Positions 2,869 to 20,543 of a stretch of 59,985 bases of DNA are shown piece after piece (the stretch's first letter is position 1; each line of letters starts with the position of its first letter). Origin of the DNA: Bacilli bacterium. GTDB taxonomy: Bacteria > Bacillota_I > Bacilli_A > RFN20 > CAG-826. Location: the NCBI GenBank assembly GCA_024695105.1, contig JAILIV010000008.1:1-59985 (forward strand). The letters are read 5' to 3'. Below the pieces are notes generated by a model, which was not told where the DNA came from, made no database searches, and worked only from the letters and a program-made list of their open reading frames with translations. Made by a program: the position numbers and the translations under genes.

Positions 2869-4953
2869 ATGAAAACGAAAACCTTACTCTTGTTGCCCGT
2901 TTCGGCCATCTGCTTAATGGGCTGCCAACCTCAATCTAACGACGACAAGCCCTATCTTTACGATGGGAGCTCCCGTCTCGTCATTCAGTCGTTTGGCGAT
3001 GAAAACACGGTCCCCATGCCTACGTATCGCCTGAAGAAGACGGGCGAAGTCCCTTATAGCGACGTCGCGGATTTCTTCTACGCCAACTGCGCGATCGGCG
3101 TGGTCAAAACCAAAGTGACGCACCAAGAAGGCATCTACCTAGTCCAAGACGATTCTGGGCGCCCGTTTGCTTCCTTTGATCCCGCCAAGGACGTCTTCAC
3201 GGTCGAGAATTACGAATATTGGAACTCTTTGTCCAAGCTTAATAACGGCGTTGGGCCGGACTTGGGCGCGGTGGATGAAACGCCCCAGGGCGCGGTCCAC
3301 CCGGGTAAATCCTCGAAATACCTCGGGGAAAGGAAGAAAGAGGTCTACGAGCTTTCCAAATACAACATCGACATCGTCGAGAACGATGGCCATTGCTACG
3401 TCCCGACGGCGTTTCTTGCCAACACCTATTACCGCTGGATCGGCAACGACTTAGCCTATAACGGCCTCGACTATTACCTTTCCGGCGTCCTTGCCTCGGG
3501 CACCATTTCCGTCATCAACGCTAGCTTCTACGCCACCAAGGACCGCTTCATGGCCCTAGAAGGGGTGGACGCGGTCGCCTATGACCCCGTCGGGGAGGAA
3601 AGCTACCGCTACGCCTATCCGGTGACCAAAGAGGACAAGACCATTTACCGCATCCTCTCCTTGACCAAAGACGGCAAAGGGAAATTGTTGACCGCCTCTA
3701 GCCCCAAAGAGGCGGGGAAAGAAGAACCCATCGACGGCGTGAACGTGAGCTACGCGTGGCAAAAGAAAGAAGACGCCTTGCTCGTGAACGTCACCTATTC
3801 CATGGTCGATCCCAACACCAATCAAACTATTTCCGTTCCCAAAGGGACGCAGAAGATCCCGCTGAAGGAAGGTTTCTACAAGAGCAACCGTTCCAAACAG
3901 ATGGCGGACTTCACCTATGACCTGCTCCGTTTCCAATTCGACCATTACTATGGCCTGAAGGACGTCGCGGGTTATCAGGACTTCGACGCCTATGCTTCCT
4001 CCAAAGGCTTGAAAGATGGCCTTCATAGTTTGGATAACGACACCTATAACAAGGCTTTGGCCACGTTGCTTATGACGCATATCGACGATGGGCATACGCA
4101 ATATTCCTTGCCCTCCATCTTCTCGGGCAAGACCAAAAGCGATGGGCAAAAACTCGCCGGGGAGACCCTTGGCAATCGTTTCAAAACCTTAGGGCAAAAG
4201 CGCGCTGAATACATGGCGCTTCGCGAAAAGACGATGGGCGCCCCCGAAGGAACCAACCTGCAGGGCTATTTCACCAAGGGCAACACCGCGGTGATCCGCT
4301 TCGACGGGTTCGACGCCCCGGGCACGATCGTGGCCAACGTCAAGCCCGAGGATATGGAGACGCTAGACCCCTTAAGCTACATCGCCAACGGGGACATCCC
4401 GGCCGCCTTCGACGCCTCCTTCTACCGCATCGGCAAAAACAAGGACATCAAAAACGTGGTCATCGACCTCACCTGCAATGGCGGGGGTTCGGTCATGGTC
4501 ATTCCCTATATCGCGGCGCATTTCAGCAAAGACCCGACCATCTATTCGGAAGATATCGCCATGGGCGTGAAGAAGGAATTCCATTACGCGGTGGACCTCA
4601 ACCACGACCAAATCTACGGTGGGGAAGGGGACTCCTACGAAGGGAAATACACCTTCTACGTGCTCACCAGCGACTTCTCCTTCTCTTGTGCCTCCTTCTT
4701 GCCCGCGGTGGCCAAAAGCGCCGGCGTGAAGATCATCGGCAAGAAGTCGGGTGGCGGCGCGTGCTCGGTCGGCGCATTCTCGGATGGCTGTGGCTCGGTG
4801 TATAACATCTCCTCGCCCCAGCGCACCCTTTATAAGGTCGGCGATTCCTTCGCCCACATTGACGCGGGCGTGCCCTTAGACCATGAGCTTGACAGCGCTT
4901 CTTGGTATAATCTTGACGCGCTGAACACGTTCCTCAATAACCTCGGGAAATAG
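2869..4953 (+). CDS. S41-family peptidase lipoprotein
   Basis: Lipobox LMGC; C-terminal S41 motifs VIDLTCNGGGS, FSFSCA and IIGKKSGGG; GGAGG RBS. Confidence 0.8.
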   Translation: MKTKTLLLLPVSAICLMGCQPQSNDDKPYLYDGSSRLVIQSFGDENTVPMPTYRLKKTGEVPYSDVADFFYANCAIGVVKTKVTHQEGIYLVQDDSGRPFASFDPAKDVFTVENYEYWNSLSKLNNGVGPDLGAVDETPQGAVHPGKSSKYLGERKKEVYELSKYNIDIVENDGHCYVPTAFLANTYYRWIGNDLAYNGLDYYLSGVLASGTISVINASFYATKDRFMALEGVDAVAYDPVGEESYRYAYPVTKEDKTIYRILSLTKDGKGKLLTASSPKEAGKEEPIDGVNVSYAWQKKEDALLVNVTYSMVDPNTNQTISVPKGTQKIPLKEGFYKSNRSKQMADFTYDLLRFQFDHYYGLKDVAGYQDFDAYASSKGLKDGLHSLDNDTYNKALATLLMTHIDDGHTQYSLPSIFSGKTKSDGQKLAGETLGNRFKTLGQKRAEYMALREKTMGAPEGTNLQGYFTKGNTAVIRFDGFDAPGTIVANVKPEDMETLDPLSYIANGDIPAAFDASFYRIGKNKDIKNVVIDLTCNGGGSVMVIPYIAAHFSKDPTIYSEDIAMGVKKEFHYAVDLNHDQIYGGEGDSYEGKYTFYVLTSDFSFSCASFLPAVAKSAGVKIIGKKSGGGACSVGAFSDGCGSVYNISSPQRTLYKVGDSFAHIDAGVPLDHELDSASWYNLDALNTFLNNLGK

Positions 4954-4979
4954 GCTCAAAAGACAAAGCCAAAAGGATT

Positions 4980-5008
4980 CCCTCGGCTAGGGCCGGGGGT
5001 TTTCTTTC
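4980..5008 (+). terminator. Intrinsic terminator
   Basis: CCCTCGGC-tagg-GCCGGGGG hairpin (one G-U pair) plus T tract. Confidence 0.7.
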
Positions 5009-5068
5009 TGCGGGGTGTGGAAGTTTAATTGCATACTTTTGTGGTAAAAATATGCAATTAAATACCCG

Positions 5069-6022
5069 TTAGCGTTTCTTTTTCTTCTTACTATTGGGGT
5101 TGTAGATGATGTGCTGGGCAACCCCGTCGACGATTTCGTTTTCGGGGTGGCATTCATGGAAGGTTTTGAGGACTTCCGGATCGTTTTTGAGCTCCTCGGG
5201 CAAAAGATTGAAGGCGAGGGGACTGGTCTTCATCGCGGCCAGGATGACCTCGGGGTCTTTTTTCATTTCCTCGGAAGCGTCGGCGATGGAATAGCCATCG
5301 TGGGTCACCGCGGCAAGGACCACTTCCTTGTCGTTCCTTAGCCGTTCGCTGGCGGCGGCGAAGTTGAAGTGGGTCCATTCGCCTTGGACGGAGGCCAATA
5401 CCACTTCCTTGTCGTCTTTTAGTTCATCGGAGGTGTAGGGGAGCGCGGCGTGATAGTTGCTCACGGCGGTCAGAGTGATCTCACGGTCAAAGCGGAACTC
5501 CTGCTTGAGCTCCTCAAAGTACATGCCCGCGGTTTTCATGGCCAAGAGGCACATGTCATGGTCATCAAGGTATTTTTCTAGACCGTGAAGGAACAGGGAA
5601 GAGCCATCGTGCTTCACGGAAGCCCAGACGATATCGCGGTTGTTTCTTAGCTCGTCGGAGATGAATTGGATGGCGGACCCACCGTGGGAGACGGCTTCTA
5701 ACGCCACGTCATAATCAAACCGGATTTCCTCGGGGTAAACGTAAAACCAGTCCGCGCAATATTTGATGGTGGATAACGCGAACTTCTTGTCGTGGAGCAA
5801 TTCGCCGGACATGCAACCTGGGAAATTGCCATGTTTTAGGGCTTCCCGCACGATTTGTTTGTCGTTTTGGAATTCCTCACAGACGTATTCCAAAGCGTCG
5901 GAATCCATCTTGACGGCTTTTAGGGCGAATTCCCTGTTTTTCCATAGGGAGGGCGGGAAATCGCTTCTTCTCTTCTTAAGTTTCTTAAGGACTTCTTTTT
6001 CAATGAACGCTTTGGAACTCAT
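5069..6022 (-). CDS. DUF4116 repeat protein
   Basis: Repeated 'L..DKEVVLAAV' units (ELKDDKEVVLASV, RLRNDKEVVLAAV, MKKDPEVILAAM). Confidence 0.85.
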   Translation of the reverse strand: MSSKAFIEKEVLKKLKKRRSDFPPSLWKNREFALKAVKMDSDALEYVCEEFQNDKQIVREALKHGNFPGCMSGELLHDKKFALSTIKYCADWFYVYPEEIRFDYDVALEAVSHGGSAIQFISDELRNNRDIVWASVKHDGSSLFLHGLEKYLDDHDMCLLAMKTAGMYFEELKQEFRFDREITLTAVSNYHAALPYTSDELKDDKEVVLASVQGEWTHFNFAAASERLRNDKEVVLAAVTHDGYSIADASEEMKKDPEVILAAMKTSPLAFNLLPEELKNDPEVLKTFHECHPENEIVDGVAQHIIYNPNSKKKKKR

Positions 6023-6152
6023 ACGAATATTATCCCCCTTCGGCGATAGAGAATGGACAAAAAAAGGATACGGGCATGGACGCTTGCTTGTGCCCGATGA
6101 GGCAAATGAATTATCTTAATAACGGCCGTTATTATTTTCCTGGGAGTCTCGT

Positions 6153-7907
6153 ATGCGATTGTTTTCCAAACCAGTATGCCTATCCCTGTCCGTTCTCGTT
6201 TTGGCTTTGTCCGCTTGTTCTAGCGGGGGAGGGAAAACGAATTCAAGTTCCAGCGCGACGACGTCGGAAGCCTCGGTGACGTCGCAAACGGGCTCTTCCA
6301 GCTCCAGCGTGGCGTCATCGGAAACCTCTTCCTCCACCGGGAATGGTTCCCAAACGGAAAAGACCTACACCATCACGTGGACCAATTATGACGGCAAGGT
6401 TTTGGAAAAAGATGAGAACGTCAAGGCCGGGACGATGCCCACTTACGATGGGGATAGGCCCACCAAGCCCGAGGACGAGGAATACGCCTATTCCTTCAAG
6501 GACTGGTACCCATCGATCTATGCGGCGAACAAGGACCAAACCTACGTCGCCCAATTCGAGCGGACAAAGGTGTTCTATAAGCTCATTTACACCCTTAACG
6601 GCGGGACGAACTCCCCGAACAATCCTTCTAAGTATCGCGTGGGCACGTCCTTCACGTTTTATCCGGCGACCAAGACCGGGTATTCGTTTGAAGGCTGGTT
6701 CTGGAGCAGTGGCGTCCAGATCACGGAAATCACCCCAGAGACGACGGGGGACATCTATTTGAACGCGCGGTGGAAGGCGGTGAAGAATACCCTTTCCGTC
6801 ACCAGCGAAGACACGTCCAAAGGCACCGTGGGCATCGTGTCCGGGGAAGGCTATTCCGGGGAGTTGATCACGGTGAAGGCGACTCCGGCCCTAGGCTATA
6901 AATTCGGCGGTTGGTACAACAAGACCACGAAAGTCAGCGGCGAGGCGACCTATACGTTCACCATGCCGACGAACGATTACGCCTTGGTGGCGAAATTCGC
7001 CTTTGACGAAGAATACGCGGTGAACCATGGCATGATCCCATCTTTCTCTAGCGACCAAAAGACGGTCACGTATGGGCTATATCCCAACAAGTACGTCAGC
7101 GACGAGACGATGTTGGCCGCGTTAGGCAAACTAAAGACGCCCGAGGCCAACGGCTATTACCTGTATGATGGTGACTATTACGCGAAGACGGTGGCGAAGC
7201 CTTATAAGAGCAACTATCAGTTCAAAGACCGTACGACCATCGTGGCGGGCACGACCTATTGGTTTAAATGCGAACCCCTTCAATGGGACGTGCTGTCCAA
7301 CACTAACGGCGAGTGCTTCTTGATGGCGTCTGACATCATTGACGCGGGCTGTTACTACAATTCCCAGGAAAAAAGGATCATCGACAACTGGTGGGTTTAT
7401 CCAAACAATTACCAGTATAGCGACATTCGCGCGTGGCTTAACGGATATGACGGAAGCGACTATAGCGCGGGAGACTATGGCAACGATAACTTCGTCCGTT
7501 CGGCCTTCGGCTTAGGCGATGACTATGTGAAGACGAAAACAGTCGACAATAGCCCAGAAACCACCAATAGCCCGGCGAACTCCTTCTATTGCAACGACAC
7601 CGAAGACGCGGTTTTCCTTGGGTCCTACCAAGACTTCGTCAACACGGACTATGGGTTCCCGTCCCACTCCAACAGCGACGACTCCCGGGAATGCATACCC
7701 ACGGATTGGGCGAAGGCCCGCGGCGCCGTTTACCGTGTGAAATATTACCCTTACGCGGGAAGCTATTGGACGCGTTCGCCGGACACGTTGAAAAACGGAG
7801 AGTACACGGTTTGGGTCGTGAATGACGTCGGCGGCATTGGGTTTGACTCCACGGAATGGGACGCCAATGGCATCCGTCCGGGGATTTGTCTCAAAACCAC
7901 CAAATAA
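6153..7907 (+). CDS. Surface lipoprotein with InlB B-repeat/Flg_new-like repeats and a DUF6273-like C-terminal domain
   Basis: Lipobox LSAC, Ser/Thr-rich linker, YTITWTNYDG / FEGW / LNARW repeats, C-terminal CEPLQWDVL...YWTRSP...GIRP. Confidence 0.75.
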   Translation: MRLFSKPVCLSLSVLVLALSACSSGGGKTNSSSSATTSEASVTSQTGSSSSSVASSETSSSTGNGSQTEKTYTITWTNYDGKVLEKDENVKAGTMPTYDGDRPTKPEDEEYAYSFKDWYPSIYAANKDQTYVAQFERTKVFYKLIYTLNGGTNSPNNPSKYRVGTSFTFYPATKTGYSFEGWFWSSGVQITEITPETTGDIYLNARWKAVKNTLSVTSEDTSKGTVGIVSGEGYSGELITVKATPALGYKFGGWYNKTTKVSGEATYTFTMPTNDYALVAKFAFDEEYAVNHGMIPSFSSDQKTVTYGLYPNKYVSDETMLAALGKLKTPEANGYYLYDGDYYAKTVAKPYKSNYQFKDRTTIVAGTTYWFKCEPLQWDVLSNTNGECFLMASDIIDAGCYYNSQEKRIIDNWWVYPNNYQYSDIRAWLNGYDGSDYSAGDYGNDNFVRSAFGLGDDYVKTKTVDNSPETTNSPANSFYCNDTEDAVFLGSYQDFVNTDYGFPSHSNSDDSRECIPTDWAKARGAVYRVKYYPYAGSYWTRSPDTLKNGEYTVWVVNDVGGIGFDSTEWDANGIRPGICLKTTK

Positions 7908-7935
7908 AGATTTGCGTTAGGCGGTTCATCTTCCT

Positions 7936-8715
7936 ATGAGAAAGCAACACCTTGGTTGGATCATTGGGGTCTTCGGGATCGTGGGCACCGTCTATGGCGC
8001 GTATTTGCTTATCTATCACCACAACCATGGCAATGGGCTTTCCGTTCCCGCCTTGATATTGCTCGTCACGGGCATCGTCGCGTTGATCTTTGCCTTATCG
8101 TTAGCCATTTCCGTTTACGTCTTCGACAAGAAGAAGGCAAAAAACGTGGAATCCGTGCCCGCGGAGAAAGAACAGAAAGCGGAAGAGAAAGTGGCTGAGC
8201 CAGTCCAAGTAGAAAAGGCGAGTGCGCTTTCTGCCGAGCCTGAGCCTGAACCAGAGCCCGAACCAGATGCTGAACCGGAAGAAGAACCAGAGCAAGAAGA
8301 TGTGGAGGATGAGGTTTCGTATGAACCAATTCCCCAAAGTTCTTACAGTCATTCCTCAAGGGTTTCCTATTCCACGGCCTACGTCAAATTGGTGGGCTAC
8401 GGCCCTTTGCTTCGCGTCGAGGGACCGCGCATCTTGGACATGCGCAGCAACACCTATTACCGGATTGAGGGCGACGTTGTCATGCAAGAGGGGTATGGCA
8501 TCCGTTACGAGATACGGGGGAATCAAATCCGGGACGCTTTTGGCGGGTACCTCTACGAATATAGCGGAAGCAACATCAACAAGGTGTTCGGCGGTTTCTA
8601 TGCCTCCGTCAGCGGTAGTTACATCACCCTTTACGATTCGTCCAAAAAATACGAAGTAACGGATTCGCTGTCCAAAAAGCAGATTCTCGTCGTGGTCGCG
8701 TTGTTATTTCAATAA
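7936..8715 (+). CDS. Hypothetical membrane protein with Pro-Glu linker
   Basis: Two N-terminal TM segments, an EPEPEPEPEP tract and a Tyr/Gly-rich C-terminal domain. Confidence 0.65.
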   Translation: MRKQHLGWIIGVFGIVGTVYGAYLLIYHHNHGNGLSVPALILLVTGIVALIFALSLAISVYVFDKKKAKNVESVPAEKEQKAEEKVAEPVQVEKASALSAEPEPEPEPEPDAEPEEEPEQEDVEDEVSYEPIPQSSYSHSSRVSYSTAYVKLVGYGPLLRVEGPRILDMRSNTYYRIEGDVVMQEGYGIRYEIRGNQIRDAFGGYLYEYSGSNINKVFGGFYASVSGSYITLYDSSKKYEVTDSLSKKQILVVVALLFQ

Positions 8716-8721
8716 CGCCTT

Positions 8722-8838
8722 TTAATAAATGTCAAAGGCCGAGTCGGGAAGGGCTGCAAAGATGCGTTCTAGGGTGAGCTTTCGGGCGAGGGCGCTTCCC
8801 ATGCCTCCGCTGACGCCAGACAAAACAACGCTTCCCAT
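8722..8838 (-). pseudogene. Remnant of a short-chain dehydrogenase (N-terminal Rossmann motif only)
   Basis: Manual translation MGSVVLSGVSGGMGSALARKLTLERIFAALPDSAFDIY*; the first ~21 aa match the SDR TGxxxGxG beta1-alphaA motif and the ORF stops at 38 aa. Confidence 0.55.
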
Positions 8839-8862
8839 GTTAGGAGCATTCTAACCTATCGT

Positions 8863-9657
8863 TTAGAAAGAAAGGCAATCCAAGGCGAGCATGATCACGA
8901 AACCGAGGACGAAGGACCAAACACCAAAATGGTCGTGCCCTTGGCTGGTCATCTCCGGAATCATCTCTTCCGCCACGACGTAGATCATGCATCCTGCCGC
9001 GAAGGCCAAGGCCCAAGGCATGATCCCTTGGATCTGCATGGCCAGGAACAAGCCGATCACCGCGGCGATGGGCTCGACGGCTCCGGAAAGCATGCCGAAT
9101 AAGAACGCCTTTCCCGAGGAACCCGTCTCACTTTTGACTGGTAAGGAAACGACAGCCCCTTCGGGAATGTTCTGTAGCCCAATGCCAATGGAAAGGAGCA
9201 ATGCCCCCAGTAAAAGGGCCGCGTTATTCTGCGTCGCGAAGGCTACGCCGAAACCAATGCCGACCGATAGCCCTTCGGGGACGTTATGGATGGTCACCGC
9301 CAGAAACATCTTGGACGTTTTGGGTAAGGTTTTGGCTGGGAGTCCTTCGTCTTGGTTTTCTTTTGTATGGAAGTGGGGGACGAGTTTATCGATGCCCCAA
9401 AGGAATAGGGCGCCAAGAAGTATGGATATGGTGACGACGAGCCAGCTTGCCATATAGCTTACCTCGGTTTCCAATGCTGGTTTGATCAGTGAGAAGAACG
9501 AGGCGGAAAGCATGACCCCGGCGGCAAAGCCCGTGAAGGCTTTCCCTAGCTTTGGGGATATTTCCTTGCCTTTGAAAAGGAATACGGAAAGCGCGCCGAG
9601 GGTGGTGCAAAGGAAGATCAGCGGTATGCCTATTAACGGATACGCGTAATCGGGCAT
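8863..9657 (-). CDS. ZIP-family (ZupT/GufA) metal transporter
   Basis: Signature motifs AVTIHNVPEGLSVG, IGLQNIPEG and FAAGCMIYV. Confidence 0.93.
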   Translation of the reverse strand: MPDYAYPLIGIPLIFLCTTLGALSVFLFKGKEISPKLGKAFTGFAAGVMLSASFFSLIKPALETEVSYMASWLVVTISILLGALFLWGIDKLVPHFHTKENQDEGLPAKTLPKTSKMFLAVTIHNVPEGLSVGIGFGVAFATQNNAALLLGALLLSIGIGLQNIPEGAVVSLPVKSETGSSGKAFLFGMLSGAVEPIAAVIGLFLAMQIQGIMPWALAFAAGCMIYVVAEEMIPEMTSQGHDHFGVWSFVLGFVIMLALDCLSF

Positions 9658-13819: not shown

Positions 13820-13849
13820 TTCACGCGTGCCAGCGCCTTGCGCTATACT
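13820..13849 (+). promoter_or_regulatory. Sigma-A-type promoter for the ncRNA/RT-LRR unit
   Basis: TTCACG-18 nt-TATACT; predicted +1 at ~13856 coincides with the first base of the inverted repeat. Confidence 0.55.
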
Positions 13850-13855
13850 TTCTTT

Positions 13856-13947
13856 GGTGGTTAGCATTTCTTAATTGAAAGCCTCAGCAAGCGTCTTCGG
13901 TACGTCCTACCGCTTAGAGGTTGGGTTCTGTTTCCATAGTAACCACC
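13856..13947 (+). ncRNA. Putative retron msr-msd-like RNA
   Basis: Terminal 8-bp inverted repeat GGTGGTTA (13856-63)/TAACCACC (13940-47); unpaired G13864 in a TTAGC context and G-TAA on the 3' arm, as in retron Ec86; internal hairpins TTTC-ttaatt-GAAA and a cUUCGg loop; directly upstream of a retron-like RT. Confidence 0.6.
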
Positions 13948-13969
13948 TTTTTTTAAAGGAAGAGTGCGT

Positions 13970-16900
13970 ATGGCTGGTCATTATGCTCCCAAAAAACCAA
14001 CGGATCCGTTGGTGCGTCTGAAATCCCGTTTGGAGGGCTTCATTGACAGTCCAGACCGCTACGTATATAGCTTCGAGATTCGGGAGAAAACCCGCACTCG
14101 TAGCATTTTGACCTACAACAAGGCCAGTGATTTTGGTATGCGGTTGAGGAGGGATCACGAGCAGTTGCTCGAGGCCTTTATGGTGAATTTCGCTGCGCGG
14201 AATCCCCATTCGTTCGCCTACCATAAATCCATTTGCTGCCGCGATGCCCTTACGGATCACCTTCGTTCCACCCATTTCATCAAGTTGGACATCCATCACT
14301 TTTTCGAAAGTATCTCCCCCGAGCTTTTCTTTGCCCATTACGGCGAGCGGTTCAACCCTCTTTGGAAAGGGTTGCTCCAAGGATGCTTTTATAAAGACGC
14401 CTTGAGCATTGGCTTTGTGACTTCCCCCGCATTAAGCGATTTCTATATGGGTAAGTTCGACGAGGCGATGGAACAAAAAATCCGGAACAACCCCAGACTT
14501 CATTATTCCCGTTATTGCGACGACATCCTTCTTTCCAGCGAGGAAGAGGGGAAAGAAACCTTGGATGCCCTATTCGAGGAGACCGTCGCGTTATTGGGCG
14601 AATTTGGCCTTTCCCTGAACGAGAAGAAGACCTCCCGGGTCAGCTTGTCGCTAGAGAAACACAATTCCATCTCCTTCCTTGGGCTGAACCTTTCCAAGAA
14701 AAACGAAGTCGACAACAAAGTCACCATCTCCAAACGTTATATCCTTTTCCTCCTTTTCCTCATCGAGAAGAACCGGAGATACGATGGCGGATGCCAAGGG
14801 CTGGTGAACGAAATCAATTCGCGCGTGGCCTATTTGGCGTATAACTCGCCCGTTTCCTTCGCCCGTTTCCAAAAGAAGCATGTCAACCGTTATGGCGTTA
14901 CCTATGACTTCGTTCCCAAAGAGGCCAAGGAGCGCCATGTTTCCCATACCGCGGAGCAGATCACGGGTTGGGAGGAATACGCCAATCAGTTCAAGATGAA
15001 CATCCACGCCAACATCGTCAGTGGCGTGACGGACAAACTCATCATGCGCGATGGGATCGAAATCGAGAAATACATTGGGAAAGAGAAAGAAGTCCGCATC
15101 CCCGATTTCGTCCATAGCATCGCCAAAGGCGCCTTCGAGCGTTCTTCCGTCCGCAAGGTAATTTTGAACAAACGTCTGAAAAACATCGGCAATGATGCGT
15201 TCTCCACTTGCCCCGAGCTAGAGGAAGTGGTGATGTCGGAATCCCTTCAATCCGTGGGTATGTTGGCGTTTAGGGATTGCCCCAAACTCCGTAGGATTTC
15301 CTTCCCTGCGACGTTAAAAGAACTTGGTTCCGGGGCCTTCCGCGACTGCGATTCATTGGAATCCGTGGATTTAAGCCAAACCGCCATCGTCACGCTGGCC
15401 CATGCGTTTAAGGAATGTCCCTCCCTTAAGGAAGTGCGCCTCCCGCAAACGTTAACTTCTATCGACCTTTATTGCTTCGAACGTTGCGTCAACCTTAAGG
15501 AAATCAACCTTCCCGATTCGTTGGAACGTCTGGGCGCCTCCGTGTTTGAGGCTTGCCATAGTTTGCGTGAGGTGGCTCTTCCCGAAAAACTGCTTGGCAT
15601 GGATGACCGTGTCTTCTATGGCTGCCACCATTTGCGGAAAGTAACGGTGGGCAAAAGCCTCGTGAGCATTCCCGTCGACGCCTTCGGTTCGTGCGAAGCG
15701 TTGAGGGAACTCATCGTCAGCCCCGATAATCTCGAATACGAAGTAGTGGATCGGTGCCTTTTGGAGCGCCATAGCAAAACCCTCGTCTTCCCTCTCCCTG
15801 GCGTGGACAAGATTCCGTCGAAAGCCAAAGCCATTGGTCCTGGCGCTTTCCGCGGTCGCGCTTTGCGTTCCATCGTCGTGCCCGAGGGCGTGACATCCAT
15901 TGGGGCGAACGCCTTTTCCAGCAACCCGTTGCTTGAAAAAGTCACGCTGCCTGAATCCTTAACCCTTCTTTCCAAGCAGGCTTTCATGGATTGCGTGAGT
16001 TTAAAGGAAATTGTTTTGCCCAAAGGGATCACCTTCTTGGCCGCCTCTTTGTTCGAAGGGTGCTTCCGCCTCGCCTCGGTTCAATGCCAAGGACCCATCA
16101 CCCACATTGGCGAGCGTGTGTTCGCCGGCGCTTCTTCTTTGGAGAGTTTCGCCATTCCCGAGACGGTGGAGTTCATCGGCTACCGCGCCTTTGCCAACAC
16201 TCACCTTCGTGAAGTGCGCATCCCCGCTGGCGTGCGTGAAATCCGCCCCTTTGCCTTTGCAGGATGCCAAAATTCCATCACGCGGTTCGAAGTGGACCCG
16301 TTAAATACCATTTACGATAGCCGCGATGGCTGCAACGCCTTGATTCGGAAGAAACACACCGTGCTGCTTTTTGGCTGCGCGAAGAGTTTCATTCCAAGCG
16401 GCGTGATCACCATCGCCCCTGGCGCCTTCGCGGATTGCCATGGCTTAAAGGGGGCGGTGGAAGGATTGCACGTCACGGTTATCGGCGCCCGCGCCTTCAT
16501 GGGCTGCGATAACGTGGAGAAGATGTGGTTCCCCGAGTTGCAACGCCTAGGAGACAAAGCCTGCTATGGCATGGAGCGGTTGGAGGAATTCAACCTCTAC
16601 GATTCGCTCGTGTCCATCGGCGGCGAGTGTTTTTCCAATTGCCAGAGCCTCGCTTCCGTCCGCATTCCTTCTTCCCTTGCTTCCATCGGGGGGCAGACGT
16701 TCCAGAATTGTCGTGCTCTCACCGAGATTTCGTTGGGCAACTTCTCCATCTCCTTAGATCCAAAGCTATTCACGGGTTGCGTGAGTCTGCGGAAAATCGT
16801 TTTCGAAGGCGAGCATCCGTCCTATCTGCCCAACAACAACAACCTGTTGATCGAACGGCGTAACAAACAAGTCGTCTTCGCCGTCCACGGGGTCGAGACG

Positions 16901-19225
16901 ATTCCCGAAGGCGTGTTGGGCCTCCATCCCAAATGCTTCATCTCCGGCGCCGACATCAAACGTTTGGTCTTGCCTTCCACCCTTCAATCCTTCCCACAAC
17001 TTCGGAACCTTCGGAATCTGGAAGAGGTGGTATTCCCCGAGGAGTTGCCAGGTCTCATTTCCGGTTACGTCCTTTCTCTCGCCCATTGCGTGAGCCTGAA
17101 GCGCTTTGTCTTCCCATCATATGGGGATAAGGGTTTCTACGATGATCGGCTCATTCCGGCCCAGTGGCATCTTGGGTCGATGTTCGAAGGGTGCGTCAAC
17201 TTGGAGGAAGTCGTTCTTCCCGAGGGTATTGAGGTCATCCAAGACCGCGCATTCCAGGGATGTAGCAACCTCAAATCCATCCGCATTCCTTCCAGCGTCC
17301 GCCTAATCGGTGAACGTGCGTTCTATGACTGCGCCAACCTGGAGGAAGTCGTTTTGCCTTCTTCTTTGGAGAAAATCGGCTCCCTGGCCTTCGCGGGATG
17401 CAAAAAGTTGGCGTCCTGCGTTTTGCCCGAAACGGTGAAGGAGATCGGCAATTTCGCCTTCTTTGAGACGGCGATCCCCGAAGTCGTCATTCCCCCTAGC
17501 GTGCAGAAGTTTGGCCGCGCGGTGTTCGCGTGGGGCCAACTAAAGTCCATCAAAGTGGAACCGGGCATCGTTTCCTTCTACCATGACGTCGACGGACGTT
17601 ATCTGATCCAGGACGAAAACGGTCTATTGCTCGTTGCCTGCGGAAACGAAGTGCCCGAAGGAACCAAAGCCATTTCTTCGTTGACCTATTCCCATAACGA
17701 AAGCATCACGGAGCTTAAGGTCCCCGAGGGCGTCACGTCTATCCATTCGGACGCTTTCTCGGGATGCGAAAACCTTCGTAGCGTATCGTTGCCTTCTTCG
17801 TTGAAGACCATCGCCCCTTCCGCGTTTGCCTCTTGTGAAAAGCTGGAGGAAGTGTCCTTCGGCAATCAATTGGAGAGCATTGGACATCACGCGTTCGTGG
17901 ATTGCGCAAGCCTTAGGGAACTTCAGTTCCCAGAATCGCTTCAAAGCGTGGATGCCTCCGCCTTCTCCGGATGTTTGTCCTTGCGGAAAGCCGCCTTGCC
18001 GCGGGGCGTGCGGTATATCGGCGCGAAGGTATTCAATTCCTGCCCCTTGCAGTCTCTCTACGTTTATAAGGAGTGGGACCTTGACGTCGCGCGTTCGAAT
18101 TCCTTTGAAGGAATCGCTAACCCTGCGCGAGAGATCATCGTGGAAAAAGGCAACCCCATATACCACGATGGCAATGGCAGCAACGTTCTTTGCTTCGGAA
18201 GCAAATTGATTCTTGGTTCCGAAAAGGGAAGCATTCCCGAAGGAACCACGATCATCGGGGATTCCGCCTTTGCGGGGTGCAAGGCGATTTCCTCCATCGC
18301 CTTCCCCAAGAGCCTTGAACGGATCGCCGGTTCCGCCTTTGCGGGGACCAACCTTAAGGAAATCGTTTTGAACGAAGGGCTCTTCATGATTGGGGATAAA
18401 GCATTCGACGGTAGCCCATTGCTCACGTCGGTTTCCATACCCTCCACCGTGAAAGAGATCTCGCGTAGCGCCTTCGGCAACTGCCCAAGCTTAAAGCATC
18501 TTTCCGTGAAGGAAGGAAATCCATGGTTTTCTTCACGCAACGAGACGATTTACGGTCCCGACCAAGGGACGCTGCAACTTGGTTGCGCAGGATCGAGCAT
18601 CGACGAAAAGACGGAGCGGATTTCCCCCTGCGCCTTCCTATACGTTCCTTTGGAGGAGATCCATATCCCCTTCACCGTCGCCAAGCTTGCCGAGAATTCG
18701 TTCGACGCCCGCGCCACGAAGCGCGTCACCATCGATGCCAAGAACCCGTATTACAACAGCGTGGACGCCGAAAACGGCATCGTATCCACCCGCGAGCATA
18801 AACTTCTTTGGGCTTGCGCGGAAACCAAGATGAAGGAGGGGCTGAAAGCCATCGGCGGAAGCGCCTTCTCCAGGGTTTCCAACGCGGGAGAATTGGTCTT
18901 ACCCGCATCCGTGACTTACGTTGCGCGAGACGCGTTTGGATATGGTCCCGACATTTCCTCCATTACCGTGGAGGAGGGGAACCCCGTCTTTGATAGCCGC
19001 GATGGATGCAACGCCCTGATCATCACCCGCATCAACAAGGCGATGCTAACCTGTAAGCAGACGAAACTTCCGGAAGGGGTTGAACTTCTTTCGGAAATCG
19101 TCCAGCCGGAGGAGCCTGGTCATTCGCTGTCATTGAGTTGGAGTTTGGATGAGCGTGAGCAACTGTTCCGTAGTTTAAGCGTTGGCGGAGAACGCCTTGC
19201 CAATCCAAGCGATCTGCCATTCTAA
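13970..19225 (+). CDS. Retron-like reverse transcriptase fused to a long BspA/LRR_5 leucine-rich-repeat region
   Basis: N-terminal RT motifs SFAYHKS, DHLRSTHFIKLDIHHFFESI, LSIGFVTSP, YSRYCDD (YCDD at 14513-14524) and SFLGL; from ~15090 onward dozens of 'L..v.lP..l..Ig..AF..C' repeats; AAAGGA RBS; no signal peptide. Confidence 0.9.
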   Translation: MAGHYAPKKPTDPLVRLKSRLEGFIDSPDRYVYSFEIREKTRTRSILTYNKASDFGMRLRRDHEQLLEAFMVNFAARNPHSFAYHKSICCRDALTDHLRSTHFIKLDIHHFFESISPELFFAHYGERFNPLWKGLLQGCFYKDALSIGFVTSPALSDFYMGKFDEAMEQKIRNNPRLHYSRYCDDILLSSEEEGKETLDALFEETVALLGEFGLSLNEKKTSRVSLSLEKHNSISFLGLNLSKKNEVDNKVTISKRYILFLLFLIEKNRRYDGGCQGLVNEINSRVAYLAYNSPVSFARFQKKHVNRYGVTYDFVPKEAKERHVSHTAEQITGWEEYANQFKMNIHANIVSGVTDKLIMRDGIEIEKYIGKEKEVRIPDFVHSIAKGAFERSSVRKVILNKRLKNIGNDAFSTCPELEEVVMSESLQSVGMLAFRDCPKLRRISFPATLKELGSGAFRDCDSLESVDLSQTAIVTLAHAFKECPSLKEVRLPQTLTSIDLYCFERCVNLKEINLPDSLERLGASVFEACHSLREVALPEKLLGMDDRVFYGCHHLRKVTVGKSLVSIPVDAFGSCEALRELIVSPDNLEYEVVDRCLLERHSKTLVFPLPGVDKIPSKAKAIGPGAFRGRALRSIVVPEGVTSIGANAFSSNPLLEKVTLPESLTLLSKQAFMDCVSLKEIVLPKGITFLAASLFEGCFRLASVQCQGPITHIGERVFAGASSLESFAIPETVEFIGYRAFANTHLREVRIPAGVREIRPFAFAGCQNSITRFEVDPLNTIYDSRDGCNALIRKKHTVLLFGCAKSFIPSGVITIAPGAFADCHGLKGAVEGLHVTVIGARAFMGCDNVEKMWFPELQRLGDKACYGMERLEEFNLYDSLVSIGGECFSNCQSLASVRIPSSLASIGGQTFQNCRALTEISLGNFSISLDPKLFTGCVSLRKIVFEGEHPSYLPNNNNLLIERRNKQVVFAVHGVETIPEGVLGLHPKCFISGADIKRLVLPSTLQSFPQLRNLRNLEEVVFPEELPGLISGYVLSLAHCVSLKRFVFPSYGDKGFYDDRLIPAQWHLGSMFEGCVNLEEVVLPEGIEVIQDRAFQGCSNLKSIRIPSSVRLIGERAFYDCANLEEVVLPSSLEKIGSLAFAGCKKLASCVLPETVKEIGNFAFFETAIPEVVIPPSVQKFGRAVFAWGQLKSIKVEPGIVSFYHDVDGRYLIQDENGLLLVACGNEVPEGTKAISSLTYSHNESITELKVPEGVTSIHSDAFSGCENLRSVSLPSSLKTIAPSAFASCEKLEEVSFGNQLESIGHHAFVDCASLRELQFPESLQSVDASAFSGCLSLRKAALPRGVRYIGAKVFNSCPLQSLYVYKEWDLDVARSNSFEGIANPAREIIVEKGNPIYHDGNGSNVLCFGSKLILGSEKGSIPEGTTIIGDSAFAGCKAISSIAFPKSLERIAGSAFAGTNLKEIVLNEGLFMIGDKAFDGSPLLTSVSIPSTVKEISRSAFGNCPSLKHLSVKEGNPWFSSRNETIYGPDQGTLQLGCAGSSIDEKTERISPCAFLYVPLEEIHIPFTVAKLAENSFDARATKRVTIDAKNPYYNSVDAENGIVSTREHKLLWACAETKMKEGLKAIGGSAFSRVSNAGELVLPASVTYVARDAFGYGPDISSITVEEGNPVFDSRDGCNALIITRINKAMLTCKQTKLPEGVELLSEIVQPEEPGHSLSLSWSLDEREQLFRSLSVGGERLANPSDLPF

Positions 19226-19292: not shown

Positions 19293-20543
19293 TTAGTGTT
19301 TTTTGTTATAGGGAACTTCGTAAAGAAGGATGTCTTCGCCACTTTCCTGACGCTGGTAAAGGAATCCGTTTTTGGAATAGAAGTGGGCGTTATTCGGATC
19401 CACCTCAAACCATTGCAGGGCATAGCAACGGTCGAACGCGGCCTTGCCGATGAACGCGACTTTGGGGCCGATGTGGACCCGTTTGAGGTTATGGCAACGG
19501 TAGAATGCGCTGTTGCCGACGTGCTCGGCCTCAATATGGATTTCCTCAAGCCCTTCGCAGGTGGAGAATGCCTCATCGCCGATGTAGTCGAACTGCGCGA
19601 TGTCGATGTCCACCAAATTGGTGCAGCACATGAACACCGCGTCCCAACAGAGGATCTTATCGCTATTGGCGTTGGGCGTGTTTTTGAACGAGCGCAAGTT
19701 GGCGCAGTGATAGAAGGCGTAGTCGTTGAGCGAATGGGCGGCGACGTGGGCGGAAAGCAGGTTGGCGCAATTGGAGAAGGCGCAGCGTCCCATCGCTGTC
19801 TTCGCGTTGGGTTTTGTTTTGAAAGCATCCAAATCCTCCAGTTCGATGGATTCGATCATCGGATCGGTGGGGTAGTCCGCGTAATACCATCCCTTTTCCT
19901 TATATGAGGTCCAAATCTTGGGTAACTCCATGGTGGAGGAGCTGATTTTCTCATATCGTTGTTTGGCGTCCATGCTGACGGGCAAAAACAATACGGAAGG
20001 CGGGAAACAGGATTTAATGAATTCGGCACGCTCTGGGTCGATGGCAACGCCGTTTTCGAGAAGGATATCGACCATCTCGCAGGCCCCGAAGACCTTGCCT
20101 TTGACGCTTTGCCCTTTGTGGGTGTAGTCGGAAGTCATCGGAAGGTTCAGGGAGAAAATGGCTTTGCCATGGTTCTTGGCGTATTCGAGTTCGTCAAAGA
20201 CGGCGTCGGAAAGAAGGGAGGTCTCGGATACGTAGAACAAAACGCCACGGCATACGGCGGGTCCCATGAATTTGTTCGCGACGTCGCGCCAATCCCTGCC
20301 CGCGGGGATGCCGCGGTCATACCAAAGATTCAGCCCGTTTTCCTGTAAGGCAAAGATGTCGCGGTAGACGAGTTTGTAGTCTCTGTGGGAATAGGAAACG
20401 AAGTAATAGTCCCTCGAGTGGACGGGAGGAAGATAGGAAGGGGGAATCATCGAGAGGTCGTTGGTTTCGATGATGCCTACCTTGATCTTGGTCTGGTCGG
20501 GGACGGGGAGGCTTTGTAGTAACTCAAGCGAGATGAAATCCAT
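19293..20543 (-). CDS. TIR-domain protein with C-terminal BspA/LRR_5 repeats
   Basis: TIR motifs YFVSYSHRD, LWYDRGIPAGRDW and SDAVFDELEYA (conserved Glu); C-terminal AFSNCANL/AFYHCANL/AFSTCEGL/AFYRCHNL/AFDRCYAL repeats. Confidence 0.88.
   Translation of the reverse strand: MDFISLELLQSLPVPDQTKIKVGIIETNDLSMIPPSYLPPVHSRDYYFVSYSHRDYKLVYRDIFALQENGLNLWYDRGIPAGRDWRDVANKFMGPAVCRGVLFYVSETSLLSDAVFDELEYAKNHGKAIFSLNLPMTSDYTHKGQSVKGKVFGACEMVDILLENGVAIDPERAEFIKSCFPPSVLFLPVSMDAKQRYEKISSSTMELPKIWTSYKEKGWYYADYPTDPMIESIELEDLDAFKTKPNAKTAMGRCAFSNCANLLSAHVAAHSLNDYAFYHCANLRSFKNTPNANSDKILCWDAVFMCCTNLVDIDIAQFDYIGDEAFSTCEGLEEIHIEAEHVGNSAFYRCHNLKRVHIGPKVAFIGKAAFDRCYALQWFEVDPNNAHFYSKNGFLYQRQESGEDILLYEVPYNKKH

What the first reader, a model, noticed from the sequence alone, without database searches (positions are those of the whole stretch)
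13856..13954. Compact msr-msd-like RNA with retron a1/a2 and branching-G signature
Seen: the predicted +1 (6 nt after TATACT) starts an 8-bp inverted repeat, GGTGGTTA...TAACCACC, enclosing 76 nt and followed by T7. Both arms reproduce the Ec86 junction context: TTA-G-C on the 5' arm and G-TAA on the 3' arm. Inside are a TTTC/GAAA hairpin and either a cUUCGg hairpin (13891-13905) or a longer imperfect stem CCTC..AAGCG/CGCTT..GAGG (13882-13920). Inference: G13864 is the 2'-OH priming nucleotide and ~13900-13939 is the template, which would give an unusually short msDNA. It could instead be a cis-acting attenuator.
Basis: partly seen in the sequence, partly recalled or inferred. Interest (0 to 1): 0.8.

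Follow-up and report, generated by a model that had tools for sequence, protein, structure and literature searches.

The report
Compact retron-like RNA before RT-LRR gene
A conserved, structured RNA of about 95 bases lies directly in front of a reverse transcriptase fused to a giant leucine-rich-repeat array; it has the anatomy of a retron template RNA, and I found no description of this retron-like system in the literature I could search.

Summary
Window 13856-13954 carries an 8-bp terminal stem (a1 13856-63 / a2 13940-47), a TTTC/GAAA hairpin, a weak central hairpin and a T7 run. It sits 15 nt before the ATG of a 1751-aa RT-LRR protein.

An 8-bp inverted repeat alone means little: the window holds 115. 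The same element precedes all 28 distinct relatives examined. Ten of 12 pairs in the terminal stem and hairpin show compensatory changes (97% of cells paired; 0 of 500 shuffles match). The G after a1 and the G before a2 are invariant. A -10 box sits at fixed distance upstream and a T-run follows, so this is a promoter-to-terminator unit.

The inner junction (UUA-G / G-UAA) is identical to Ec86, which I verified in E. coli. The RT domain is closest to retron RTs by sequence and by predicted fold. Among 400 genomes of the class, the RNA occurs only where this RT clade occurs.

Stand-alone RT relatives in defence islands carry the same RNA with long perfect msd-like stems. Best reading (about 0.6): a retron-type msr-msd RNA primed at G13864. 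msDNA itself could not be tested. The T-run terminator, the variant NAxxH and VTG motifs and the LRR fusion are departures. Neither retron/UG survey mentions an LRR fusion.

The parts
13820..13849 (+). Sigma-70-type promoter (TTCACG, 18-nt spacer, TATACT). The predicted transcription start is at or next to the first base of a1.
   Evidence: A -10-like box lies 11-16 nt upstream of the invariant G in 24 of 28 homologous leaders, with a mode of 14 nt.
13856..13863 (+). a1, the 5' arm of the terminal stem P1 (GGTGGTTA).
   Evidence: Pairs with 13940-13947. Six of 8 pairs show compensatory changes across 28 sequences, and 96% of cells are paired.
13864..13864 (+). Invariant unpaired G directly 3' of a1; the candidate 2'-OH priming (branching) guanosine.
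   Evidence: Invariant in all 25 aligned sequences and in the three further stand-alone relatives. It occupies the same position as the G that directly follows a1 in Ec86, which from my knowledge of Ec86 is the branching G.
13867..13880 (+). P2, an msr-like hairpin. The stem is TTTC/GAAA and the loop is the conserved TTAATT.
   Evidence: All 4 pairs show compensatory changes, and 99% of cells are paired. The loop consensus is UUAAnU.
13885..13892 (+). Conserved box CAGCAAGC at the base of the central hairpin.
   Evidence: Conserved columns in alignment A3. In stand-alone relatives the AGCAA or AGUAA sits in the loop of a small extra hairpin.
13881..13921 (+). P3, the variable central hairpin and msd-like template candidate: CCUC/GAGG plus AAGCG/CGCUU with a 17-nt loop.
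   Evidence: The central regions of the 28 relatives fold better than dinucleotide shuffles (mean z = -2.0; 20 of 28 below -1). The window's own copy is weak (z = -0.37). Stand-alone relatives have perfect 10-16 bp stems. No conserved register was found, and a helix-search test did not beat shuffles.
13935..13939 (+). Conserved CAUAG box with invariant G13939 directly 5' of a2. By analogy with Ec86, this is the first templated bases, and the G itself is not copied.
   Evidence: G invariant, CAU(A/G/U)G conserved. The Ec86 sequence shows an unpaired G directly 5' of a2; that Ec86 does not copy this G is from my knowledge of its msDNA.
13940..13947 (+). a2, the 3' arm of P1 (TAACCACC).
13948..13954 (+). 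T7 run, the likely intrinsic-terminator tail that ends a discrete RNA of about 95-100 nt. The RT gene must be reached by read-through.
   Evidence: A T-run directly follows a2 in 27 of 28 relatives. In L006 a canonical terminator hairpin plus T-run follows a2 instead. Only 8-25 nt separate the T-run from the ATG, which leaves no room for a second promoter.
13955..13964 (+). Ribosome-binding region (AAAGGAAGAG) of the RT-LRR gene.
   Evidence: Read directly from the sequence. GGAG-like motifs occur at the same place in the relatives.
13970..15004 (+). Retron-type reverse transcriptase domain (aa 1-345) of the RT-LRR protein, with an intact YCDD motif.
   Evidence: Pfam RVT_1, E = 1.7e-20. Best PADLOC hits are retron RT_II-A, RT_I-B and Ec107-like. 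Best NCBIfam hit is retron_St85_RT at 108 bits. The top 11 PDB sequence hits are retron RTs. An AlphaFold2 model (pLDDT 80.6) has retron RTs as its top 18 Foldseek hits.
15005..19225 (+). About 1400 aa of BspA-type leucine-rich repeats fused to the RT, ending in an SSB-like tip, ...SDLPF (19211-19222).
   Evidence: Pfam LRR_5, E = 5.5e-213. 37 of 45 homologues end in [DE][LMVF]PF. The host SSB ends in DDVPF.

Best explanation
The element is the non-coding RNA partner (msr-msd type) of a retron-like reverse transcriptase.

Transcription and structure. The RNA is transcribed from its own promoter, starting at or next to the first base of a1 (about 13856). It ends at the T7 run (13948-13954) as a discrete RNA of about 95 nt. 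Occasional read-through gives the mRNA for the 1751-aa RT-LRR protein, whose ATG lies 15 nt further on. The RNA folds into a junction with four elements:
- the covarying terminal stem a1/a2, which closes the structure;
- a short conserved hairpin, P2 (loop UUAAUU), plus the AGCAAGC box, which form the msr-like recognition part;
- a sequence-variable central hairpin, which is the msd-like part;
- a conserved CAUAG box abutting a2.

Inferred mechanism, by analogy with Ec86. The RT domain binds the conserved 5' part. It uses the 2'-OH of the invariant G13864 as primer. It copies the RNA starting at A13938, just 5' of the unpaired G13939, and runs back through the central hairpin. This would give a short branched msDNA of roughly 40-55 nt.

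Biological role. The LRR array, with its SSB-like C-terminal tip, is inferred to be the sensor or effector part of an anti-phage system.

Shown here: the RNA's conservation, its covariation, its promoter and terminator boundaries, its exclusive co-occurrence with this RT clade, and the retron-type nature of the RT. Inferred: priming at G13864, the template extent, msDNA production and a defence role.
For: 1. Conservation and covariation. The same element precedes every homologue examined. On 28 distinct sequences, 97% of cells in P1 and P2 are paired and 10 of 12 pairs carry compensatory changes. No shuffle out of 500 reaches the observed values, and slid controls reach only 34-64% paired. The independent MAFFT alignment gives the same result.

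2. Junction. The G after a1 and the G before a2 are invariant. The inner junction UUA-G...G-UAA is identical to that of Ec86, read from E. coli C.

3. The RT is retron-type.
- The PDB profile search returns retron RTs as its top 11 hits (Ec83, Ec78, Ec86, Kva2; E = 4e-16 to 3.5e-12), against 8e-7 or weaker for group II intron RTs.
- Foldseek returns retron RTs as its top 18 hits, with target-normalised TM up to 0.73 over the full length of the retron RT. DGR, group II, DRT9 and DRT2 RTs score about 1e-10.
- The best PADLOC and NCBIfam models are retron RTs.
- The catalytic D and the YxDD motif are invariant.

4. Exclusivity. A covariance model of the RNA finds one copy in the window. Across 400 genomes of the class it hits only the 3 genomes (4 loci) that encode this RT clade. 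Two further weak hits have no RT nearby and are taken as chance.

5. Retron-like pattern of variation. The 5' part and the 3' box are conserved, while the central hairpin is hypervariable in sequence and length. Its folding z-score averages -2.0 over 28 sequences. Stand-alone RT relatives (39-47% identity) have perfect 10-16 bp central stems.

6. Context of relatives. The stand-alone RT versions lie in defence islands with McrBC, a restriction-modification gene, AbiTii and a TIR protein. They are followed by effector-like genes (a NERD-helicase, DUF2130) and by LRR_5 proteins.

7. Boundaries. A -10 box sits at a fixed distance upstream of a1 in 24 of 28 loci.
Against: - No direct evidence for msDNA or a 2'-5' branch.
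- A conserved T-run, or in L006 a canonical terminator, separates the RNA from the RT gene. To my knowledge, described retrons co-transcribe ncRNA and RT without a terminator.
- The literal retron motifs are altered. Region X is (D)A-x-x-x-H instead of NAxxH, and region Y is FLG instead of VTG. Only the H and the G are kept.
- RT scores are far below the retron family cut-offs (108 vs 235 bits).
- The Rfam msr model and all other Rfam families give no hit.
- The window's own central hairpin is thermodynamically unremarkable (z = -0.37). No conserved P3 register could be demonstrated.
- The RNA is much shorter than characterised retron ncRNAs (about 92 nt against 171 nt for Ec86).
- No recognisable toxin or effector domain, and no conserved partner gene, accompanies the RT-LRR form.
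Confidence: 0.6

Rival explanations
1. The RNA is a dedicated partner of this RT, as scaffold and/or template, but it does not work as a retron. DNA synthesis would be primed by protein or by a 3'-OH rather than by the 2'-OH of G13864. It might copy a different segment, for example the 3' U-tract, to give a homopolymer as in DRT9. It might also make a repetitive product as in DRT2.
For: - The U-run is conserved in 27 of 28 loci. DRT9 uses a conserved U-tract as template for poly-dA (PMC12483538).
- The literal retron motifs NAxxH and VTG are not kept.
- The partner of the stand-alone relative in L055 matches a PADLOC model filed under DRT systems (RTasNERD-Hel, E = 1.6e-41).
- No toxin-type effector is present, so the DNA product could itself be the effector.
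Against: - By sequence and by fold the RT is clearly nearer to retron RTs than to DRT9, DRT2 or Abi RTs.
- The a1/a2 stem with an invariant G at its inner end is the specific retron priming geometry, and it matches Ec86 base for base at the junction.
- In DRT9 the templating U-tract is in an internal loop, and the 3'-terminal U-rich region was dispensable.
- In L006 the U-run is displaced behind a canonical terminator hairpin. That fits termination rather than templating.
Confidence: 0.2
2. The element is a cis-acting leader or attenuator of the RT-LRR gene. The a1/a2 stem plus the U-run would terminate transcription before the gene. Binding of the RT or another factor, or an alternative fold, would set the level of read-through. 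The RNA would not be reverse transcribed.
For: - The promoter, structured leader, T-run, RBS and ATG are arranged like an attenuator, and the RT can only be expressed by read-through.
- L006 carries a canonical terminator at the same place.
- A semi-conserved internal UGGUU motif (13920-13924) resembles a1 and could pair with a2 as an alternative (read; not resolved).
Against: - No conserved antiterminator could be defined.
- No Rfam riboswitch or leader family matches.
- The RNA is strictly tied to one clade of catalytically intact RTs across fused and stand-alone gene architectures, as is known for template RNAs of retron and DRT RTs.
- The invariant unpaired Gs and the hypervariable central hairpin have no obvious role in an attenuator.
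- A terminator at the end of a trans-acting RNA gene is equally compatible with the retron reading.
Confidence: 0.15
3. The inverted repeat is a chance feature or a plain terminator of the upstream methyltransferase gene, with no link to the RT.
For: 8-bp inverted repeats of this spacing are common: 115 in the window. The single-sequence fold has z = -0.93.
Against: - The element is conserved with compensatory changes in 28 loci whose upstream genes differ.
- A promoter lies between the upstream gene and the element.
- The element co-occurs only with the RT clade.
Confidence: 0.02

Closest known systems
Retron-Eco1 (Ec86) msr-msd ncRNA and RT, type II-A (Mestre et al. 2020, PMC7736814)
   Same: - The ncRNA lies directly upstream of the RT on the same strand, and a2 ends a few nt before the ATG.
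- Terminal inverted repeats a1/a2 close the fold.
- The inner junction is identical (UUA-G on the 5' side, G-UAA on the 3' side).
- There are short conserved hairpin(s) 5' and a variable stem-loop 3'.
- The RT fold and sequence are closest to retron RTs.
   Different: - The RNA is about 92 nt from a1 to a2, against 171 nt in Ec86.
- It has one msr hairpin instead of two, and a weak msd stem in the window's copy.
- A conserved T-run terminator lies between the RNA and the RT.
- The RT carries (D)AxxxH and FLG instead of NAxxH and VTG.
- The RT is fused to about 1400 aa of BspA-type LRR with an SSB-like tip.
- There is no NDT-type effector gene.
- The covariance model of this RNA does not hit the Ec86 locus.
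Single-gene retrons with the effector fused to the RT: type I-C (RT-Toprim), XI (RT-protease), XII (RT-TIR)
   Same: One polypeptide combines an N-terminal retron-type RT with a C-terminal non-RT module. The ncRNA lies upstream.
   Different: The fused module here is a giant LRR array with no recognisable catalytic domain. PADLOC scores for those RT models are lower than for II-A, I-B and Ec107-like.
DRT9 (UG28) and DRT2 ncRNA-RT systems
   Same: A structured ncRNA is encoded upstream of a defence RT and serves as scaffold and template. A conserved U-tract is present.
   Different: The RT here is nearer to retron RTs (Foldseek 6e-16 against about 3e-10). The DRT9 U-tract is in an internal loop, not after a closing stem. 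Those ncRNAs are not described as having a retron-type a1/a2 priming geometry.
Earlier notes of this scan on RT-LRR loci in other genomes (e1-4642456, e1-4433232)
   Same: The same kind of compact a1/a2 RNA before an RT-LRR gene, and the same SSB-like C-terminal tail.
   Different: These are unpublished AI notes on other genomes. They are not independent evidence. The SSB-tail claim was re-tested here.

Membership tests
Retron (ncRNA msr-msd + retron RT) | The RT belongs to the retron RT lineage. | tested here: met
   Retron RTs are the best hits in four searches: PDB sequence (E = 4e-16 to 3.5e-12), Foldseek (top 18 hits), PADLOC and NCBIfam. No tree was built against a reference retron set, so placement inside or beside the 13 described types is open.
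Retron (ncRNA msr-msd + retron RT) | [quoted passage not shown] | tested here: inconclusive
   Aligned with Ec86 NNATPH, the family has R/x-D-A-L-x-D-H. The H is invariant, the N is replaced and the spacing is one residue longer.
Retron (ncRNA msr-msd + retron RT) | [quoted passage not shown] | tested here: inconclusive
   The family has S-F/Y-L-G-L where Ec86 has V-T-G-L. The G is invariant; V and T are not kept.
Retron (ncRNA msr-msd + retron RT) | The ncRNA gene is contiguous with the RT gene and on the same strand. | tested here: met
   The element ends 8-25 nt before the RT start codon in all 28 loci.
Retron (ncRNA msr-msd + retron RT) | Terminal inverted repeats a1/a2 hybridise and enclose the msr and msd structures. 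| tested here: met
   The 8-bp P1 has 6 pairs with compensatory changes and 96% of cells paired. No shuffle out of 500 matches.
Retron (ncRNA msr-msd + retron RT) | A conserved branching G lies at the 3' end of a1. | tested here: met
   The G directly after a1 is invariant in 28 of 28 loci, and the junction is the same as in Ec86. Its priming function is not testable here.
Retron (ncRNA msr-msd + retron RT) | The msr has 1-3 short hairpins and the msd has a long stable stem-loop. | tested here: inconclusive
   The P2 hairpin is proven by covariation. The central hairpin is strong in stand-alone relatives (z = -3.6 to -5.8) but weak in the window (z = -0.37). No common register was found.
Retron (ncRNA msr-msd + retron RT) | Production of msDNA joined to the RNA by a 2'-5' bond. 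| not testable with these tools
This needs an experiment.
Retron (ncRNA msr-msd + retron RT) | An associated effector, making a tripartite system. | tested here: inconclusive
   The RT-LRR form has no conserved neighbour gene in the 11 other RT-LRR loci inspected and no catalytic domain besides the RT. Stand-alone relatives have a NERD-helicase or DUF2130 plus LRR_5 genes.
Rfam msr (retron msr RNA) and all other Rfam families | A match to the covariance model. | tested here: not met
   No Rfam hit overlaps 13856-13954, even at E <= 10.
NCBIfam retron_St85_RT (NF038233) | A score above the curated cut-off of 235 bits. | tested here: not met
   It is the best hit but scores only 108.5 bits.
DRT9-type U-tract-templated RT system | A UG28-class RT and an internal-loop U-tract template. 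| tested here: not met
   DRT9 RT structures rank below all retron RTs. The U-run here is 3' of the closing stem and is replaced by a terminator hairpin in L006.
Transcription attenuator / riboswitch leader | A terminator plus a mutually exclusive conserved antiterminator or ligand pocket. | tested here: inconclusive
   A terminator-like T-run is conserved. No conserved alternative fold was established. An internal UGGUU motif is only a lead.

The most novel reading that the evidence does not exclude
This is an undescribed retron type. A retron-lineage RT is fused to, or in relatives encoded next to, BspA-type LRR proteins, and it carries a C-terminal mimic of the SSB docking tip. Its ncRNA is an independent promoter-to-terminator gene of only about 80-100 nt. 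That would make it among the smallest msr-msd RNAs known, and the RT would be expressed only by terminator read-through. The LRR array would be the phage sensor, and the SSB-like tail would link the RT-msDNA complex to the cell's SSB-client proteins.
Probability: 0.45. Interest if true: 0.75.

Novelty: new variant of a known kind. Interest (0 to 1): 0.66.

Why it matters
If it is a working retron, it adds a new architecture to retron biology: an LRR fusion, an SSB-tail mimic and an ncRNA with its own terminator. None of the papers I searched describes an RT-LRR retron, and neither systematic survey mentions LRR or leucine (PMC7736814, PMC9226505).

It would also link LRR sensing, the hallmark of eukaryotic innate immune receptors, to reverse-transcriptase-based bacterial defence.

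On the practical side, the stand-alone relatives pair a 295-340 aa RT with an ncRNA of about 80-150 nt. They would be compact candidates for retron-based DNA production, and they give a clean system for asking what minimal RNA a retron RT needs.

Tried and rejected
- Rfam scan at E <= 10: nothing overlaps the element.
- Single-sequence folding of the window element: not better than shuffles.
- RNAalifold on MAFFT alignments: recovers only P1 and P2, and the central region is not alignable.
- A helix-search test for a P3 base next to P2: shuffles do as well (5.8 vs 5.5 bp), so no claim is made from it.
- A conserved partner gene for RT-LRR: none in the 11 other RT-LRR loci inspected. The convergent TIR-LRR gene of the window (19293-20543) is not conserved there. 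The TIR protein near the stand-alone RT in L055 is unrelated apart from the TIR fold.
- The covariance model on the Ec86 locus and on remoter RT loci (24-33% identity): no hits.
- Two weak covariance-model hits in other genomes (G184, G308): no RT nearby, taken as chance.
- Horizontal-transfer signal: GC content is uniform at 0.50-0.56 across 8-24 kb.
- Literature: the two retron/UG surveys, a 2026 metagenome retron survey and a 2026 RT-mining preprint do not mention LRR or leucine.

Full report
**What is at the coordinates.**
- GGTGGTTA (13856-13863) and TAACCACC (13940-13947) enclose 76 nt and are followed by seven T (13948-13954).
- G13864 follows the 5' arm, and G13939 precedes the 3' arm.
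- Inside lie a TTTC/GAAA hairpin (13867-13880, loop TTAATT) and an imperfect stem, CCTC..AAGCG / CGCTT..GAGG (13882-13920).
- A promoter-like site, TTCACG-18-TATACT, ends at 13849.
- Fifteen nt after the T-run begins a 1751-aa ORF (13970-19225). Its first ~330 residues form a reverse transcriptase (RVT_1, E = 1.7e-20). The rest is about 1400 residues of BspA-type LRR_5 repeats (E = 5.5e-213).

**Is it more than chance?** Not on its own. The window holds 115 perfect 8-bp inverted repeats with a 40-120 nt gap, against 57-100 in shuffles. This is the only one followed by a T-run. The fold of the single sequence is unremarkable (z = -0.93). The case rests on comparison with relatives.

**Relatives.** The RT-LRR protein has 44 full-length homologues, 51-63% identical in the RT part. 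They come mostly from rumen and gut Erysipelotrichaceae/Bacilli metagenome-assembled genomes. I fetched the loci of 24 distinct ones.

Every one carries the same element directly before the start codon. Its order is: GUGGUUA - G - a 4-5 bp hairpin with loop UUAAnU - YAGCAAGC - a variable region of 55-80 nt - CAU(A/G/U)G - UAACCAC - a T-run.

**Covariation.** On a MAFFT alignment of 25 sequences, 11 of 13 proposed pairs show compensatory changes, and 0 of 500 column shuffles reach the observed values. On the model-based alignment of 28 sequences:
- 97% of cells are paired;
- 10 of 12 pairs have compensatory changes;
- partners slid by 1-3 columns drop to 34-64% paired.

Examples for a1/a2 are GGUGGUUA/UAACCACC, GGCGGUA/UACCGCC, GUGGCUA/UAGCCAC, UGGUUG/CAACCA and AGAGGUUA/UAACCUCU. 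The G after a1 and the G before a2 never change.

**Boundaries.** A -10-like box lies 11-16 nt upstream of the invariant G in 24 of 28 leaders, often with a TG extension or a TTGACA at the right spacing. Transcription should therefore start at or next to the first base of a1.

A T-run directly follows a2 in 27 of 28. In L006 a canonical GC-rich terminator hairpin plus T-run follows a2 instead. That argues the T-run's role is termination. Only 8-25 nt separate the T-run from the ATG, so the RT gene can only be expressed by read-through. The element is therefore a promoter-to-terminator RNA gene of about 95 nt that doubles as the leader of the RT gene.

**The enzyme.** Several searches place the RT domain closest to retron RTs.
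- A profile of the RT domain finds retron RTs as its top 11 PDB hits (Ec83, Ec78/Eco7, Ec86, Kva2; E = 4e-16 to 3.5e-12). The DGR RT scores 2e-7 and group II intron RTs score 8e-7 or weaker (8ub7 is identified as a DGR RT).
- An AlphaFold2 model (pLDDT 80.6) has retron RTs as its top 18 Foldseek hits. These cover the whole length of the ~310-residue retron RTs, with target-normalised TM up to 0.73. DGR, group II, DRT9, DRT2, G2L4 and Abi-P2 RTs follow at 1e-10 or weaker.
- The best PADLOC models are retron RT_II-A, RT_I-B and Ec107-like at about 90 bits.
- The best NCBIfam model is retron_St85_RT at 108 bits, well under its 235-bit cut-off.
- The catalytic aspartates and YxDD are invariant.

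The literal retron signatures are altered. Where Ec86 has NNATPH and VTGL, this family has DALxDH and FLGL. It keeps only the H and the G, which Mestre et al. call the most conserved residues (PMC7736814; alignment).

**Comparison with a real retron RNA.** I located Ec86 in E. coli C and read it. Its a1 is UGCGCACCCUUA, followed by G-C. Its a2 is UAAGGGUGCGCA, preceded by C-G. Its a2 ends 5 nt before the RT ATG. The three inner base pairs and the two flanking unpaired Gs are the same as here.

Ec86 measures 171 nt from a1 to a2, against 92 nt here. The covariance model of the new RNA does not hit the Ec86 locus, and Rfam finds nothing. This is resemblance of geometry, not sequence homology of the RNAs.

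**Exclusivity.** Among 400 genomes of the same class, the RT clade (E <= 1e-48) occurs in three genomes at four loci. The RNA model hits exactly those four places. Two further weak hits have no RT nearby. In the window the model hits once.

**Stand-alone relatives.** RTs of 295-340 aa, 39-47% identical and without LRR, carry the same RNA upstream. Their central regions are clean, long hairpins. Examples are a 16-bp stem in L055, a 14-bp perfect palindrome in L045 and a 10-bp one in L053 (z = -3.6 to -4.6). A small extra hairpin presents AGCAA in its loop. This is the textbook msr/msd picture.

These loci lie in defence islands:
- L055: McrBC, an LRR_5-SWIM protein, then RNA-RT, a NERD-helicase (PADLOC RTasNERD-Hel, E = 1.6e-41), a 578-aa protein and a TIR protein.
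- L057: a restriction-modification gene and AbiTii, then RNA-RT, DUF2130, an LRR_5 protein and McrBC.

The link between this RT/RNA and LRR_5 proteins therefore recurs in fused and unfused form. By contrast, the RT-LRR form has no conserved neighbour. The window's convergent TIR-LRR gene is not a conserved partner.

**The central hairpin.** Across 28 sequences the region between P2 and a2 folds better than dinucleotide shuffles (mean z = -2.0; 20 of 28 below -1). The window's own copy does not (z = -0.37). I could not define a common register or show covariation for it. The cUUCGg hairpin is not conserved. The longer stem matches the family's habit of starting a long hairpin within a few nt of P2.

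**Most likely mechanism (confidence about 0.6).** The RNA is a retron-type msr-msd RNA. The RT domain recognises the conserved 5' part (P2 loop, AGCAAGC box). It primes on the 2'-OH of G13864. It copies from A13938 back through the central hairpin, giving a branched msDNA of roughly 40-55 nt.
- Shown: structure, boundaries, co-occurrence and RT type.
- Inferred: priming, template extent, msDNA and a defence role.

**Rivals.**
- A non-retron use of the RNA by the RT, for example protein priming or U-tract templating as in DRT9: 0.2.
- A pure attenuator: 0.15.
- Chance: 0.02, refuted.

**Novelty.** The two systematic surveys of retrons and UG/Abi RTs contain no mention of LRR or leucine. Neither do a 2026 metagenome retron survey or a 2026 RT-mining preprint. 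Full-text searches for retron plus LRR returned only incidental hits.

Earlier AI notes of this scan describe the same kind of RNA before RT-LRR genes in other genomes. They are leads, not evidence. Their claim of an SSB-like tail was re-tested and holds:
- 37 of 45 homologues end in [DE][LMVF]PF after an unconserved linker;
- the window protein ends in SDLPF;
- the host SSB ends in DDVPF.

I rate this a new variant of a known kind, a retron-like system, with interest of about 0.66.

Noticed in passing
window 19211-19222 (C-terminus of the RT-LRR ORF): The protein ends in ...NPSDLPF. Of 45 homologues, 37 end in [DE][LMVF]PF after a non-conserved stretch of about 40 aa. This resembles the C-terminal docking tip of bacterial SSB. 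The host's own SSB (G000:C49, L065 824-1288, minus strand) ends in ...DSDDVPF.
   Followed up: partly
L032 10052-11389: The DUF4116 protein encoded directly downstream of an RT-LRR gene also ends in EDDLPF. DUF4116 proteins recur near RT-LRR genes (L032, L036).
   Followed up: no
window 19293-20543 (- strand): A 416-aa TIR_2 + LRR_5 protein is convergent with the RT-LRR gene. No such gene is present next to the RT-LRR gene in the 11 other loci inspected. The TIR protein near the stand-alone RT in L055 shares only the TIR fold.
   Followed up: partly
L055 4169-10345; L057 (G372:C5) 3476-8853: Stand-alone RT relatives with the same RNA sit in defence islands. L055 has an LRR_5-SWIM protein, then the RNA and RT, a NERD-helicase and a 578-aa protein. 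L057 has the RNA and RT, then DUF2130, an LRR_5 protein and McrBC. A DUF2130 gene also lies immediately upstream of the RT-LRR gene in L032 (3281-4690).
   Followed up: partly
L006 1682-1727: In this relative, a2 is followed by a canonical terminator hairpin (GGCTAAGG...CCTTTAGCC plus TTTT) instead of a direct T-run.
   Followed up: no
window 13920-13924: A semi-conserved internal UGGUU motif resembles the a1 arm. It could pair with a2 (UAACC) as an alternative to the a1/a2 stem. In L003, where a1 has lost one U, the internal motif is UGGUA. This could be a switch or only the 3' strand of the central hairpin.
   Followed up: no
L034 10864-11718; L035 6059-6862; L041 10112-11668: ADP-ribosylglycohydrolase genes (in two loci) and a PARG-like gene (in one locus) lie close downstream of RT-LRR genes. 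This is not a consistent pattern.
   Followed up: no
L058 (G372:C12) 8659-9585 (- strand): The second stand-alone RT copy in the same genome was reported with two in-frame TAA codons in the aligned span. It may be a decaying paralogue. Its upstream RNA is the shortest seen: 87 nt including the T-run.
   Followed up: no
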